Shown: in pieces, positions 22,665 to 29,637 of the stretch
Layout of the letters: every line of letters starts with the position of its first letter
Numbering within the stretch: the stretch's first letter is position 1
NCBI GenBank assembly: GCA_016185545.1
Contig: JACPNJ010000001.1
Coordinates: 22,565 to 86,564 of the forward strand
Source: Candidatus Yanofskybacteria bacterium
Lineage (GTDB): Bacteria; Patescibacteriota; Minisyncoccia; 2-02-FULL-40-12; IGHO2-01-FULL-4-A
DNA length: 64,000 nucleotides
Direction: 5' to 3'
Notes under the pieces: model-generated
The model's input: the letters and a program-made list of their open reading frames with translations, nothing else
What the model was told of the DNA's origin: nothing
Databases searched by the model: none
Program-made: the position numbers and the translations under genes

Positions 22665-22962
22665 CGCTCATCCCCTGCCAATTTTTATCAGGTGTCCTCG
22701 CAGTACAAATAATATGTTGATTTTCTCGTTTTTCTGTCAGGCGAAGTTTCTTGTGGGCGGTGCTTTAGCCCGCCCATAGAATCTCCTCTGATAAAAAAAT
22801 CGTACCCCTTACGCTCACCCAGCCCCACTTTTATTCTAAAAGTGGGGCTGGGTTCGCTCCGTCCCAATTTTCTTTATCAGCGAAAAACTTCAAAAATCAA
22901 CATTTATTTGTTACTACTCAAGCCAATTGATAAAAATTGACAGGGGCTCGCTCTAGTCTAAA
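22665..22962. mobile_element. MITE-like repeat family A, copy 1 (about 295 bp, TIR CCCCTGCCAATTTTTATCA, internal hairpin CCCAGCCCCACTTTT...AAAAGTGGGGCTGGG)
   Basis: Near-identical to 55015-55262 except for a 53-bp internal insertion and a different but still self-complementary central hairpin. The two ends are inverted repeats of each other. Confidence 0.5.
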
Positions 22963-23843: not shown

Positions 23844-23964
23844 TTTGTTTGTCCGCACACAGCGAATCGAGTCCTATCAAAAATTACAAACCCTAATCCC
23901 AGCCGTAGTTTTAGCAAAAACTACGGCTGGGTGATTTTTATCACTTCGATAATGAATTACTGCT

Positions 23965-24135
23965 AAAAATTAGAGCGAGGCCATTATGCCTCATAGCACC
24001 GTCAAAAGAGTGGATTGCACGGTTTGCGAGCAGTACAATAGTAAAGCACTGCGAGCAAAATCCACGCTTTTGACGGAATGCAGAATTCTCGCTGGGAATT
24101 CAAATGGTGATAGGAGGCATAATGGCGAGCGGATA
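23965..24135. mobile_element. MITE-like repeat family B, copy 1 (about 170 bp, TIR GCGAGGCCATTATGCC / GGCATAATGGCGAGC, long internal hairpin)
   Basis: Second copy at 53378-53548 with the same termini and the internal CCGTCAAAAGAGTGGATT / AATCCACGCTTTTGACGG inverted pair. Confidence 0.5.
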
Positions 24136-26170: not shown

Positions 26171-26356
26171 TTATAGCAAACCCAAATATTATGTCAATTG
26201 TTTGTGGATAACCAAAATACTGAGAATAACTCGGTTTTTTTACTCCCAGGGGGTGGGGAATTAAAAGACAAAGTGTTAGATATTTTTGGAAATTTCTGGA
26301 GTTTCTATAAATAAGCTCTAGAAATGAGCCATAGCAATAACTGATGCCTTTCTTTA

Positions 26357-27160
26357 CTTAGAGGCTCAGCCTCTAAGTAACCAACAACTTACAATTTTTG
26401 CCGAGACACCTCGGCTTTTATTTTACTTTCGCCGCACAGGTTACTTAGAGGTTGAGCCTCTAAGTAACCTGTGCTATAAGTTTAATCTATGAGAAAACTT
26501 CAATTTGAAAATGGAGAGTTTTATCACATATACAACCGGGGCAACAATAAAAGGCCTATTTTTATGAAATCTTTTGATTTGCAGAGATTTTTGCAAAGTA
26601 TGATTGAATTCAATGTAGATGGACCAATCGGAAGTATTTATGCCGTTTCTTTCAACAAAGAATCACTTAGAGGCTCAGCCTCTAAGTCGAGACGACCAGT
26701 TGATATTGTTTGTTATTGCCTAAATCCTAACCATTTTCATCTTTTAGTTAGACAGTTGGAAAACGATGGAATTAAGAATTTTATGCATAAATTAGGAACT
26801 GGATATACAATGTATTTTAATAATAAACACGAATTGAACGGTGGACTTTTTCAGGGGAGATATAAAGCAATTCACATAGATACAAATGATTATCTGTTGT
26901 ATTTAAGCGCTTATATCAATTTAAATCCTGAAGCCCATCAACTTAGAGGCTCAGCCTCTAAGTTGTGCCAATCAAGTTGGAATGAATATATCGGTGATAA
27001 ATCTAGCAAGGGTAAATTGTGCAATACCAGGATTGTATTGTCGCAGTTTGAAACCGTGGAGGGTTATAAAAAATTTGCCGAAAAGGCGCTCGGGGTGATT
27101 ATAGAGAAAAAAGAGATGGAAGAATCCCTGAAGCTTTTACTTAGAGGCTGAGCCTCTAAG
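26357..27160. repeat. REP-like 21-bp palindrome CTTAGAGGCT(C/G)AGCCTCTAAG, five copies (26357-26377, 26444-26464, 26666-26686, 26942-26962, 27140-27160)
   Basis: Exact or 1-mismatch copies read from the sequence. Copies 3 and 4 lie in frame inside the RAYT ORF (LRGSASK). Copy 5 contains the ORF's TGA stop. Confidence 0.7.
26489..27151 (+). CDS. REP-associated tyrosine transposase (RAYT) / IS200-like HuH Y1 transposase
   Basis: 'GEFYHIYNRGNNKRPIF' N-terminal RAYT motif, HuH motif 'NHFHLLV' and catalytic tyrosine context 'GGLFQGRYKA'. Confidence 0.75.
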   Translation: MRKLQFENGEFYHIYNRGNNKRPIFMKSFDLQRFLQSMIEFNVDGPIGSIYAVSFNKESLRGSASKSRRPVDIVCYCLNPNHFHLLVRQLENDGIKNFMHKLGTGYTMYFNNKHELNGGLFQGRYKAIHIDTNDYLLYLSAYINLNPEAHQLRGSASKLCQSSWNEYIGDKSSKGKLCNTRIVLSQFETVEGYKKFAEKALGVIIEKKEMEESLKLLLRG

Positions 27161-27294
27161 TGGCTATGGGCGCTTGCTTGGCGCTTTAAATTTTGTTATT
27201 ATTCTCAGCATGTCAGAAGTTAGTAGTACAACCCCGTTAGATATTTACGTTGTTAAGCAAACTAACGAGGTTAAATCGGGCATATTGTTAATTT

Positions 27295-29272: not shown

Positions 29273-29290
29273 ATCAGTCGGCTAAAATAG

Positions 29291-29374
29291 GGGGTGTACT
29301 CAAGCAGTCAACGAGGGCAGACTGTAAATCTGCTGGCCTTGTGCCTACGTAGGTGCAAATCCTACCGCCCCCAC
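29291..29374 (+). tRNA. tRNA-Tyr (anticodon GTA), long variable arm
   Basis: Acceptor GGGGGTG/CGCCCCC, anticodon stem-loop GCAGA-CTGTAAA-TCTGC and a long variable arm. The T-loop TGCAAAT is atypical (G at position 55). Confidence 0.7.
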
Positions 29375-29526
29375 AATTAGAGCAAGCCAATTGATTGGCT
29401 TGCGGGTAGGATTTGCAGGGCGCAGCTATGTTTCGCGAGTATTTGGCGAGCGAAACAGCGAGCAGCGGCCTGCGACCGCGAGGCCGGAAGGCCGAGCGAG
29501 TCGTAGGACAATCCTACCGCCCCCAC
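29375..29526. repeat. GC-rich ~130-bp insert after tRNA-Tyr ending in a direct repeat of the tRNA-Tyr T-arm/acceptor 3' end
   Basis: 29494-29526 'GTAGGACAATCCTACCGCCCCCA' repeats tRNA 3' end 'GTAGGTGCAAATCCTACCGCCCCCA'. The insert starts with a perfect hairpin GCAAGCCAAT-TG-ATTGGCTTGC and an inverted copy GGGTAGGATTTGCA. Local GC is far above the genome background. Confidence 0.4.
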
Positions 29527-29562
29527 CGAATAAAAATTAAAAAATAATTTTTAACTAAATAG

Positions 29563-29637
29563 GCCGAAGTAGCTCAGGGGCAGAGCAATTCCATGGTAAG
29601 GAATAGGCCGTGGGTTCGATTCCCACCTTCGGCTCCA
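29563..29637 (+). tRNA. tRNA-Thr (anticodon GGT)
   Basis: Acceptor GCCGAAG/CTTCGGC, D-arm GCTC-AGGGGCA-GAGC, anticodon stem-loop ATTCC-ATGGTAA-GGAAT, T-arm GTGGG-TTCGATT-CCCAC, CCA encoded. Confidence 0.8.

What the first reader, a model, noticed from the sequence alone, without database searches (positions are those of the whole stretch)
29375..29526. Small GC-rich insert after tRNA-Tyr bounded by a direct repeat of the tRNA 3' end
After tRNA-Tyr (29291-29374) comes about 120 bp of GC-rich sequence. It starts with a perfect hairpin GCAAGCCAAT-TG-ATTGGCTTGC and an inverted copy of the T-arm (GGGTAGGATTTGCA). It then has GCGAGC-type repeats and ends with GTAGGACAATCCTACCGCCCCCA, which repeats the tRNA T-arm and acceptor 3' strand. 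Duplicated tRNA 3' ends mark integrase-mediated insertion at tRNA genes, but this element is far too small to encode anything. It is therefore either a deletion remnant or a miniature tRNA-targeting element.
Basis: seen in the sequence. Interest (0 to 1): 0.6.

Follow-up and report, generated by a model that had tools for sequence, protein, structure and literature searches.

The report
tRNA-linked repeat RNA, CPR lineage
The GC-rich 152 bases after tRNA-Tyr are one copy of a conserved, folded RNA module that sits behind tRNA genes and ends in a copy of the tRNA's own tail; it has the layout of the 'tRNA-linked repeats' known in E. coli since 1978, whose function is still unknown, and here it turns up in very distant small-genome CPR bacteria.

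Summary
tRNA-Tyr (29290-29373) is followed by a 152-nt GC-rich insert with four parts: a perfect hairpin, a 13-nt exact complement of the T-loop and T-stem 3' strand, a structured core, and an exact 17-nt copy of the tRNA 3' end. tRNA-Glu (50010-50084) carries a homologous 153-nt unit.

It is not an integrase scar. A covariance model built from 12 copies finds the same module behind seven tRNA species (Tyr, Glu, Thr, Arg x2, Leu, Trp) in Yanofsky-, Niyogi-, Kaiser- and Saccharibacteria contigs. Of 37 base pairs, 30 show compensatory changes. G·U pairs occur only on the tRNA-sense strand, so this is a selected RNA structure co-transcribed with the tRNA. Near-identical strains differ by its presence or absence.

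The layout matches E. coli tRNA-linked repeats (TLRs; RtT RNA, Rfam RF00391). Those also have a hairpin, then GGAUGAGAA(C/G) complementary to the T-arm, a GC-rich core, and a copy of the tRNA's last 18-19 nt, in units of 150-178 nt. The core differs and RF00391 does not detect the CPR copies.

Verdict: a new, divergent lineage of a known but functionally unexplained kind. The segment complementary to the T-arm covaries with T-loop bases 54-56, which only the real tRNA has. This suggests the precursor can adopt an alternative fold.

The parts
29290..29373 (+). Host tRNA-Tyr(GTA). Its T-loop is unusual (UGCAAAU, G at position 55). CCA is not encoded.
   Evidence: ARAGORN; Rfam tRNA 50.9 bits.
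29358..29374 (+). Proximal copy of the direct repeat: T-loop A58 to one base past the discriminator. This is the true tRNA 3' end.
   Evidence: the repeat finder. Empty-site relatives keep this end.
29375..29381 (+). 7-nt linker (AATTAGA) between the tRNA end and hairpin Pa.
   Evidence: Sequence. L074 has a similar linker, AGATAGA.
29382..29403 (+). Hairpin Pa: 10 bp perfect with a 2-nt loop. In the family it is 9 bp with a YUGY loop.
   Evidence: All 9 modelled pairs show compensatory changes and 99% of cells are paired.
29405..29417 (+). Segment complementary to the T-arm (GGUAGGAUUUGCA). It matches tRNA bases 54-66 at 13 of 13 positions. It can instead pair with the distal copy: a 9-nt exact complement, or 10 of 13 aligned positions.
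29418..29509 (+). Conserved structured core. It holds a 7-bp stem with a GA..GA-flanked loop (29429-29457), the junction GCGAGCAG, and a long arm capped by a GGAA tetraloop hairpin (GGCC-GGAA-GGCC, 29482-29493).
   Evidence: RNAalifold; CM R1 140 bits; pair counts.
29510..29526 (+). Distal copy (R) of the tRNA 3' end, which ends the element. tRNA-Thr(GGT) starts 37 nt further on, at 29563.
50010..50084 (+). Host tRNA-Glu(CTC) of the second copy.
50096..50117 (+). Hairpin Pa of the Glu copy (GCAACUCGC-UUGU-GCGAAUUGC, one mismatch).
   Evidence: Sequence. The CM hit is 50096-50238 at 148 bits.
50118..50130 (+). Segment complementary to the T-arm, GUCGGGAUGAGAA. It makes 11 Watson-Crick pairs plus a tandem G·A with tRNA-Glu bases 54-66.
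50131..50219 (+). Conserved core of the Glu copy.
   Evidence: Alignments.
50220..50239 (+). Distal 20-nt copy of the tRNA-Glu 3' end (C56 to A75). The proximal copy is 50067-50086.

Best explanation
The insert is a CPR-lineage member of the tRNA-linked repeat (TLR, or RtT-like) class.

What it is. It is a roughly 135-nt structured RNA module encoded directly behind a tRNA gene on the same strand. Its order is: short linker, hairpin Pa, a 13-nt segment complementary to the cognate tRNA's T-loop and T-stem 3' strand, a conserved two-arm core, and a copy (R) of the tRNA's last 17-20 nt.

How it works, marked as shown or inferred.
1. Inferred from position and from the absence of a promoter or terminator inside: it is transcribed as the tRNA's 3' trailer.
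2. Inferred by analogy with E. coli, where the annotated rttR RNA starts 8 nt after tyrV and ends exactly at the end of R: cleavage at the tRNA 3' end frees the module.
3. Shown as covarying structure: in the freed RNA the complementary segment pairs with R (helix P1), closing the core. The acceptor-strand copy is left as a tRNA-like 3' tail that sets the RNA's 3' end.
4. Inferred from covariation with bases 54-56, which R lacks, and from folding energies: before cleavage the same two segments allow a rival fold. In it the complementary segment takes over the real T-loop and T-stem 3' strand, and R substitutes in the T and acceptor stems.
5. Shown as strain polymorphism and a 1.4-unit copy: at the DNA level, R and the tRNA end form direct repeats about 150 nt apart, and units are gained, lost and tandemly multiplied. 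The mechanism is not shown.

The cellular role is unknown, as it is for E. coli TLRs.
For: Family and structure.
- The two window copies align without gaps.
- Pattern scans found copies in a Saccharibacteria and a Yanofskybacteria genome and in five groundwater metagenome contigs.
- CM R1 scores 88-159 bits on training members. It also finds copies it was not trained on: Kaiserbacteria tRNA-Tyr (92 bits), L100 tRNA-Tyr (135 bits) and tRNA-Trp-linked copies (25-43 bits).
- Every hit with an identifiable upstream gene lies just 3' of a tRNA on the same strand.

Covariation.
- RNAalifold on a plain MAFFT alignment gives compensatory changes in 25 of 37 pairs.
- On 16 sequences, 94% of cells are paired against 71% in shuffles. 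30 of 37 pairs change on both sides. Slid controls reach at most 44%. G·U pairs are present, so the fold is read on the tRNA-sense strand.

The segment complementary to the T-arm.
- It pairs at 8-13 of 13 positions with the cognate tRNA (mean 11), and always at 2-3 more positions than with R.
- Cognate pairing beats non-cognate pairing in all 20000 permutations.
- It tracks UGC versus UUC at bases 54-56.

Co-transcription. The Tyr copy lies between two tRNAs with no promoter or terminator hit inside. The Glu copy is followed by a strong TTGACA-17-TATATT promoter.

Alternative fold. The full precursor's minimum-energy structure is the rival fold in both cases. It is about 6 kcal/mol below 'tRNA plus closed trailer'.

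DNA dynamics.
- Strains with an identical L33 protein carry the element (L091, L095, L096) or lack it (L089, L090, L092-L094).
- L076 holds 1.4 tandem units with a 56-nt repeat.

Known kind.
- E. coli RtT units have the same order of parts, including GGGGAAGGAUGAGAAG and a final AAUCCUUCCCCCACCACCA.
- rrnB has GGAUUUGAAC and an 18-nt repeat of the 5S rRNA end at about 150-bp spacing.
- The TLR definition and numbers come from PMC8144298.
Against: - RF00391 does not match the window copies at E <= 10.
- CM R1 aligns E. coli RtT only at its ends (6.7 bits, E = 0.11). Homology with E. coli TLRs is therefore not demonstrated, and the shared GGAUGAGAA could be convergence on the same T-loop target.
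- In L017, L023 and L028 the distal copy differs from the upstream tRNA in the acceptor strand, so the rival fold cannot fully form there.
- In L020 and L077 the complementary segment matches the T-stem poorly.
- No expression or processing data exist for any CPR copy.
- The strain polymorphism suggests the element is dispensable.
- Alignment A5 was fitted to the model, which inflates the pair counts.
Confidence: 0.6

Rival explanations
1. It is a miniature or decayed integrative element. A tyrosine integrase acting in trans recombined a small circle carrying a tRNA 3'-end copy (attP) with the T-loop of the tRNA gene, leaving attL and attR repeats.
For: - The repeat runs from the T-loop to just past the tRNA end, as in T-loop-type att sites (my knowledge of tRNA att sites).
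- Units are present or absent among strains.
- The arrays have the form R-(body-R)n, as Campbell-type integration would give.
- The E. coli tyrT/rttR region is enriched in exonuclease-resistant DNA under stress (10.1101/2024.07.17.603846).
Against: - No integrase lies beside either window copy, and the gene tables of the related loci list no integrase family. Those neighbourhoods were not searched for one.
- There are no copies in viral contigs.
- The interior is under RNA-structure selection, with G·U pairs on one strand only.
- The downstream copy usually lacks a T-stem 5' arm, so no symmetric core site exists there.
- The 166-nt difference between filled L091 and empty L092 is not a clean att duplication. 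It carries an extra AGTTAGCTT after R.
- Where the two copies differ (L017, L023), the upstream tRNA is the intact one. That is the opposite of what T-loop crossover predicts.
Confidence: 0.12
2. It is selfish repeat DNA with no RNA function. Units spread and multiply by slippage or unequal recombination between the tRNA end and R, and the hairpins only promote misalignment.
For: - Presence or absence among strains, and partial tandem units.
- No function has been found for E. coli TLRs in over 40 years (PMC8144298).
- In L074 a different core sits between the same kind of ends.
Against: - Six helices keep pairing through compensatory changes across several CPR groups.
- A GGAA tetraloop and tandem G·A motifs are conserved.
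- G·U pairs are strand-specific.
- The complementary segment tracks cognate T-loop bases.
These are signs of selection on an RNA, although that selection could serve the element rather than the host.
Confidence: 0.15
3. It is an intron-like insertion in the T-loop. The distal copy would be the real 3' exon, and the roughly 150 nt from base 56 of the first copy onward would be removed by splicing.
For: - The minimum-energy fold pairs the tRNA 5' strand with the distal copy and loops out the proximal one.
- Patescibacteria are rich in tRNA introns (PMC13011429).
- Group I introns do occur in the tmRNA T-loop (the same paper's methods).
Against: - The proximal copy already completes a normal tRNA, and empty-site relatives use it.
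- There is no group I or group II hit, even at E <= 10.
- The core is about 90 nt, far below any known self-splicing intron.
- There is no terminal G at the 3' end of the element and no U·G pair at a 5' splice site (sequence reading).
- In L017 and L023 the distal acceptor strand cannot pair with the tRNA 5' end.
Confidence: 0.04
4. It encodes a small basic peptide, like tpr inside E. coli RtT.
For: 49-codon open frames span the insert on both strands. E. coli annotates tpr within rttR.
Against: - The longest open frame changes strand and frame from member to member.
- It is broken by the insertion in L028.
- GC-rich sequence gives open frames by chance.
- The substitution pattern follows helices, not codons.
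Confidence: 0.02

Closest known systems
E. coli tRNA-linked repeats (TLRs). The type example is RtT RNA (rttR) in the tyrT-tyrV operon, Rfam RF00391 (Egan & Landy 1978 and Rudd 1999, as cited in PMC8144298).
   Same: - It lies directly behind a tRNA on the same strand.
- Units are 150-178 nt there and 138-191 nt here.
- The last 17-20 nt are identical to the tRNA's 3' end, starting in the T-loop.
- A hairpin is followed by a segment complementary to the T-stem 3' strand and T-loop. The same non-Watson-Crick choice, AUGAGAA opposite UUCGAAU (a tandem G·A), is made in both.
- The core is GC-rich and structured, with tandem G·A motifs (also noted for RtT in 10.1101/2020.02.04.933952).
- Units can be tandem (3.14 in E. 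coli, 1.4 in L076).
- Function is unknown.
Sources.
   Different: - The core sequence and helix topology differ.
- RF00391 does not detect the CPR copies, and the CPR model does not detect the RtT core.
- CCA is part of the repeat in E. coli but is mostly not encoded here.
- The hosts are CPR (Patescibacteria) rather than Enterobacteria.
- In the CPR family the host tRNAs are at least seven species.
rrA, rrB and rrF: TLRs between the two terminators of E. coli rrnA, rrnB and rrnD (PMC8144298).
   Same: An 18-nt copy of the upstream gene's 3' end lies at about 150-bp spacing. The motif GGAUUUGAAC is identical to that in the CPR copy L005 (L077 has AGAUUUGAAC). A GAA-looped hairpin follows, as in L076.
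   Different: They are linked to 5S rRNA, sit after a terminator and are reached by read-through. They are reported to bind Hfq and CsrA in vitro. No such data or partners are known for CPR.
Duplicated tRNA 3' ends flanking integrase-mobilised islands and prophages, and non-autonomous derivatives of such elements (my knowledge).
   Same: A direct repeat of the tRNA 3' end starts in the T-loop, and insertions are present or absent among strains.
   Different: The element is 150 nt with no genes, has a conserved RNA fold, carries a segment complementary to the cognate T-arm, and has no integrase nearby.
Group I introns of Patescibacteria tRNA genes (PMC13011429), and the tmRNA T-loop intron.
   Same: They are structured RNA insertions associated with tRNA genes in the same phylum. 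A real example was seen in passing: tRNA-Thr(GGT) in L100 is interrupted after the anticodon.
   Different: Those introns lie in the anticodon loop, are over 200 nt, match RF00028-type models and interrupt the tRNA. This element lies after a complete tRNA and matches no intron model.

Membership tests
tRNA-linked repeats (TLR class, as defined in PMC8144298 after Rudd 1999) | Located in a tRNA or rRNA operon, immediately downstream of the gene on the same strand. | tested here: met
   The Tyr copy starts 1 nt after tRNA-Tyr and lies between two tRNAs. The Glu copy follows tRNA-Glu. All CM hits with an identifiable upstream gene follow a tRNA.
tRNA-linked repeats (TLR class, as defined in PMC8144298 after Rudd 1999) | The 3'-terminal 18-19 bp are identical to the 3' end of the upstream tRNA or rRNA gene. 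| tested here: met
   17 nt (Tyr) and 20 nt (Glu) are exact. Relatives have 16-56 nt. Exceptions with diverged copies: L017, L023 and L028.
tRNA-linked repeats (TLR class, as defined in PMC8144298 after Rudd 1999) | Repeat spacing of about 150-180 bp, sometimes tandem. | tested here: met
   Spacing is 152 and 153 in the window and 138-191 in relatives. L076 has 1.4 units.
tRNA-linked repeats (TLR class, as defined in PMC8144298 after Rudd 1999) | Transcribed with the upstream gene and processed to a discrete RNA. | not testable with these tools
   Indirect only: there is no internal promoter or terminator. The E. coli rttR annotation ends at the end of R.
RtT RNA family (Rfam RF00391) | Match to the RF00391 covariance model (gathering score 45 bits). 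| tested here: not met
   No RtT hit at E <= 10 in 29280-29560 or 50000-50280. The same search gives 133-137 bits on E. coli units.
RtT RNA family (Rfam RF00391) | Closing helix between a segment complementary to the T-stem and the distal tRNA-end copy, with GGAUGAGAA next to it. | tested here: met
   GGAU/AUCC helix. The motif is present in Glu_w, L017, L020 and L028, is UUGAGAAC in L023, and varies in step with the T-loop in others.
Integrase-mobilised element at a tRNA gene | A recombinase gene inside the element, or a demonstrable autonomous relative. | tested here: not met
   The unit is 152 nt with no conserved ORF. Neighbouring ORFs are a TPR protein, L33, proline dehydrogenase and an unknown 263-aa protein. 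There are no viral-contig copies. An autonomous relative elsewhere cannot be excluded.
Integrase-mobilised element at a tRNA gene | The insertion equals the element plus a clean duplication of the identity block. | tested here: inconclusive
   Filled L091 differs from empty L092 by 166 nt, including R plus an extra AGTTAGCTT. Allelic exchange between strains could blur the junction.
Group I intron | Match to intron models; interrupts the host RNA; U·G pair at the 5' splice site and a terminal G at the 3' end. | tested here: not met
   There are no Rfam intron hits. The host tRNA is complete upstream. The element ends in ...GCC or ...GAC, not G.
MITE or IS-type transposon | Terminal inverted repeats and a short fixed-length target-site duplication. 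| tested here: not met
   The element ends (AATTAGAGCAAG... and ...GTCGTAGGAC) are not inverted repeats. The repeat length varies from 16 to 56 nt and always equals the tRNA end.

The most novel reading that the evidence does not exclude
TLRs may be an ancient, phylum-spanning class of tRNA-attached RNA modules whose two tRNA-matched segments make the precursor bistable. Those segments are the one complementary to the T-arm and the copy of the 3' end. In one fold a normal tRNA is released. In the other, the module displaces the real T-loop and 3' strand and builds a pseudo-tRNA around itself. That switch could gate tRNA maturation. Alternatively, it could be the means by which an enzyme-less selfish element recognises and copies itself onto tRNA 3' ends.
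Probability: 0.2. Interest if true: 0.75.

Novelty: new member of a known kind. Interest (0 to 1): 0.5.

Why it matters
- TLRs have been an unexplained curiosity of E. coli for more than four decades and are treated as enterobacterial.
- A structurally conserved, covarying counterpart behind seven tRNA species in reduced-genome CPR bacteria shows that the design is widespread and under selection at the RNA level: hairpin, segment complementary to the T-arm, core, tRNA-tail copy.
- The finding supplies a diverse alignment in which the constraints can be read. One new, testable constraint emerges: the complementary segment tracks T-loop bases 54-56, which only the real tRNA has. This points to an interaction with the tRNA inside the precursor.
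- It also explains why metagenome assemblies break at these tRNA clusters (the Logan contigs end just before the tRNAs).
- It warns annotators not to read such repeats as att sites.

Tried and rejected
- **Rfam.** Searches at gathering and at E <= 10 gave only tRNA plus noise: tmRNA_permuted at E = 6 and mascRNA (matching the tRNA itself) at E = 0.013.
- **Known ribozymes, by eye.** I looked for a hammerhead, a C/D box or an SRP-like motif (UUGAUGA, CGAAAC, the GGAA loop). The motifs vary between members and no model hit supports them, so I dropped these.
- **Group I intron in the T-loop.** Rejected on size, splice-site rules and the existence of empty sites.
- **IS200/IS605, TnpB guide RNA or IS110 bridge-RNA readings.** I considered these because a Y1 transposase ORF lies 2.2 kb upstream and because a structured scaffold ending in a 17-20-nt 'guide' looks like such an RNA. 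No nuclease or transposase is linked in any locus. The Y1 ORF has its own unrelated palindromes. The two 'guides' cover the same tRNA bases rather than adjacent halves. Not supported.
- **Viral contig scan.** It returned 45 hits, all chance matches or protein-coding.
- **E. coli tyrU-glyT spacer** (the cluster syntenic to the window's Thr-Tyr-Thr). It contains no TLR.
- **CM R1 on E. coli** rrnB, tufB-operon and tyrT loci. There was no significant core match.
- **Peptide coding.** There is no conserved frame.
- **Deriving the exact de novo insertion junction** from L091 versus L092. This was inconclusive, because a linked SNP in the tRNA suggests allelic replacement by recombination.

Full report
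**1. The observation**

Reading the sequence with ARAGORN, Rfam and the repeat finder confirms the finding.

- tRNA-Tyr(GTA) is 29290-29373.
- A 7-nt linker follows, then a perfect 10-bp hairpin (29382-29403).
- GGTAGGATTTGCA (29405-29417) is a 13-nt exact complement of TGCAAATCCTACC (29354-29366). That target is the whole T-loop, the T-stem 3' strand and base 66.
- About 90 nt of sequence with up to 64% GC comes next, in a window whose flanks are 34-45% GC.
- AATCCTACCGCCCCCAC (29510-29526) is an exact 17-nt copy of 29358-29374.
- tRNA-Glu(CTC) at 50010-50084 is followed by the same arrangement. Its 20-nt repeat has a spacing of 153, and the arms of its upstream inverted repeat are again 38 nt apart.
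- The two inserts align end to end with almost no gaps.

**2. It is a family of structured RNAs**

*Collecting members.* A motif taken from the two copies found true matches in two genomes: a Saccharibacteria genome (L005, behind tRNA-Glu) and a Yanofskybacteria genome (L010, nearly identical to the window's Tyr copy). It also matched five groundwater metagenome contigs, behind tRNA-Arg(GCG), tRNA-Arg(TCG), tRNA-Leu(TAA) and tRNA-Glu. The window's L33 protein is 98% identical to a Yanofskybacteria protein. Loci fetched through L33 homologues added copies behind tRNA-Tyr in Niyogibacteria (L076), behind tRNA-Thr(TGT) in other Yanofskybacteria (L077, L078, L082), and behind tRNA-Tyr in L091, L095 and L096.

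*Covariance model.* A model built from 12 sequences recovered all of these. It also found copies it had not been trained on:
- Kaiserbacteria tRNA-Tyr at 92 bits;
- L100 tRNA-Tyr at 135 bits;
- diverged copies behind tRNA-Trp at 25-43 bits.

The window holds exactly two copies.

*Structure.* RNAalifold on the plain MAFFT alignment predicts four elements: hairpin Pa; a closing helix P1 (GGAU/AUCC); a 7-bp stem with a loop flanked by GA..GA; and a long arm capped by a GGAA tetraloop. 25 of 37 pairs are kept through changes on both sides.

On 16 model-aligned sequences:

| Measure | Observed | Control |
|---|---|---|
| Cells paired | 94% | 71% in shuffles (0 of 500 reach it) |
| Pairs changed on both sides | 30 of 37 | mean 18.7 in shuffles (0 of 500 reach 30) |
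| Cells paired when partners are slid | - | at most 44% |

That alignment leans towards the model, but the result does not depend on it. Many pairs include G·U. On the other strand these would be A·C mismatches, so the fold is read on the tRNA-sense strand, as RNA. No reading frame is conserved.

**3. The two tRNA-matched segments**

For 13 instances I compared the 13-nt inverted segment with bases 54-66 of the upstream tRNA and with the equivalent bases of the distal copy.

- It forms 8-13 standard pairs with the cognate tRNA (mean 11).
- That is always 2-3 more than with the distal copy.
- No permutation of tRNAs among elements reaches the observed total (0 of 20000).
- It follows T-loop differences that the distal copy does not contain. 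UGC at bases 54-56 in the Tyr tRNAs of the window and L091 is answered by GCA, while UUC elsewhere is answered by GAA. G59 in L076 and L100 is answered by C.
- Where the loop is UUCGAAU, the segment is often AUGAGAA, giving five Watson-Crick pairs around a tandem G·A.

The distal copy is exact in most loci. It differs by single C-to-U changes that keep G·U pairing in L020 and in the Trp-linked copy of L089. It is clearly foreign in its acceptor strand in L017, L023 and L028. My inference is that those three arose by recombination between the conserved cores of elements at different tRNAs.

**4. Context and dynamics**

- The Tyr copy lies inside a tRNA cluster, Thr-Tyr-[element]-Thr, followed by L33. 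No promoter-like or terminator-like site falls inside it.
- The Glu copy is followed at once by TTGACA-17-TATATT.
- Strains sharing an identical L33 protein either carry the element (L091, L095, L096) or do not (L089, L090, L092-L094). The empty site reads ...CCCCCAC|AAAGAATC. The filled site has 166 extra nt right after that C, including R, a 6-nt repeat of the element's start, and CTT.
- The proximal copy is therefore the tRNA's own end.
- A linked SNP in the tRNA suggests the allele arrived by recombination, so the de novo junction stays undefined.
- L076 has 1.4 tandem units with a 56-nt repeat that runs on through Pa and the complementary segment.
- L074 has a different, AT-richer core between the same kind of ends at the same site.
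- L075 is empty.

**5. Comparison with what is known**

Rfam 15 has no match for the element. The paper on Patescibacteria tRNA introns concerns the anticodon loop and does not describe this element.

The E. coli tyrT-tyrV locus shows the same layout. After each tRNA-Tyr, or after each previous unit, come a spacer with a hairpin, then GGGGAAGGAUGAGAAG, which is complementary to the T-stem 3' strand and T-loop. A GC-rich core follows, then AAUCCUUCCCCCACCACCA. Units are 178 nt. Rfam calls them RtT (133-137 bits). The annotated rttR RNA ends exactly at the end of the copy.

PMC8144298 names the class tRNA-linked repeats:
- 22 in E. coli K-12, at ten loci;
- 18-19 bp at their 3' end identical to the end of the upstream tRNA or rRNA gene;
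- no known function; an early claim of one was retracted.

The rrnB member has GGAUUUGAAC, identical to that of CPR copy L005 (L077 has AGAUUUGAAC), and a repeat spacing of about 150 bp. A tandem G·A motif in RtT is noted in 10.1101/2020.02.04.933952.

The CPR model aligns to an E. coli unit only through its ends, at 6.7 bits and E = 0.11. The CPR elements therefore meet the definition of the TLR class and share its end architecture. They are not members of the RtT Rfam family. Common descent is plausible but not shown.

**6. How it most likely works**

*Shown:*
- a conserved RNA fold on the tRNA strand;
- tRNA-matched segments;
- direct repeats about 150 nt apart;
- gain, loss and partial tandem copies.

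*Inferred:*
- The element is the tRNA's 3' trailer and is freed by cleavage at the tRNA end.
- In the freed RNA the complementary segment pairs with R, closing the core and leaving a tRNA-like 3' tail that defines its end, as in rttR.
- Before cleavage the precursor can take a rival fold. ViennaRNA's minimum-energy structure for both full precursors pairs the tRNA 5' strand with the distal copy and pairs the real T-loop and T-stem 3' strand with the complementary segment. It lies about 6 kcal/mol below 'tRNA plus closed trailer'. tRNA tertiary contacts are ignored in that figure.
- Only the rival fold uses both the acceptor-strand identity of R and the complementarity to bases 54-56. This is why I think it is selected.

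What the rival fold achieves is unknown. It could control tRNA maturation, serve the element's own upkeep, or do nothing.

**7. Verdict**

The integrase-scar reading is not supported. The element is a new, divergent lineage of a known but unexplained kind. Interest is moderate: the class is old, but its presence, conservation and readable constraints in CPR bacteria are new and make the old question testable.

Noticed in passing
window 26356-27172: An ORF with a Pfam Y1_Tnp (IS200-like) domain (26489-27151) is flanked and also interrupted by five copies of the 23-nt perfect palindrome ACTTAGAGGCT(C/G)AGCCTCTAAGT. This looks like a REP/RAYT-type pair. It is absent from the syntenic loci L074 and L075.
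   Followed up: partly
window 22672-22946 and 55023-55246: A MITE-like element of about 275 bp with 19-nt terminal inverted repeats (CCCCTGCCAATTTTTATCA) is present in two copies that are 80-97% identical.
   Followed up: partly
window 23964-24134 and 53377-53546: A long imperfect palindromic element of about 170 nt is present in two copies (75-84% identity). Nested arms of 21 and 18 nt suggest a long hairpin. There is no Rfam hit at gathering score.
   Followed up: partly
window 29290-29373: tRNA-Tyr has a non-canonical T-loop, UGCAAAU (G where the near-universal U55 would be), and a D-loop without the GG pair. The T-loop is the same in L010, L074 and L075. L091 has UGCGAAU.
   Followed up: no
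window 50245-50273: A near-consensus sigma-70-type promoter, TTGACA-17-TATATT, starts 6 nt after the Glu-linked element and lies upstream of a 263-aa ORF with no Pfam match.
   Followed up: no
L074 9560-9905; L023 166-230: A small GIY-YIG ORF (87 aa) is bracketed by 19-nt inverted repeats, GGCCTCACACCTACTTAGC. It sits next to a 5' fragment of tRNA-Thr(GGT). An ORF-less version of about 65 nt with the same inverted repeats abuts the 5' end of tRNA-Arg in an unrelated contig. This looks like a second tRNA-associated mobile element family.
   Followed up: no
L074 9332-9522: At the same tRNA-Tyr site as in the window there is a different, AT-richer insert of about 180 nt. It has the same kind of ends: linker AGATAGA, a long hairpin, GATTTGCA complementary to the T-loop, and a 16-nt repeat of the tRNA end. 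The covariance model does not detect it. The ends seem conserved while the core is replaceable.
   Followed up: partly
L017 1426-1458; L020 2401-2423; L023 304-324: Between the tRNA end and hairpin Pa, three copies carry an extra small A/U hairpin (for example AAAACGAAGUUUU), followed by a second short (5-8 nt) copy of the tRNA's last bases. This is a further layer of 3'-end duplication.
   Followed up: no
L025 188-540: A 5'-truncated tRNA-Glu copy (from the anticodon stem onward) plus its element lies about 60 nt downstream of a different, complete tRNA-Glu(CTC). The contig has coverage 1 and may be chimeric.
   Followed up: no
L100 2132-2985: tRNA-Thr(GGT) is split after the anticodon by about 190 nt of structured sequence, probably a group I intron of the kind reported for Patescibacteria. 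A 197-aa ORF with no Pfam family on record ends at the tRNA's 5' end.
   Followed up: no
L001-L003 (Logan contigs of the window's own S2 gene): Short-read assemblies of this organism end within 25 nt of the stop codon of the TPR gene, that is, at the start of the tRNA cluster. This is consistent with the repeated tRNA ends breaking assemblies.
   Followed up: no
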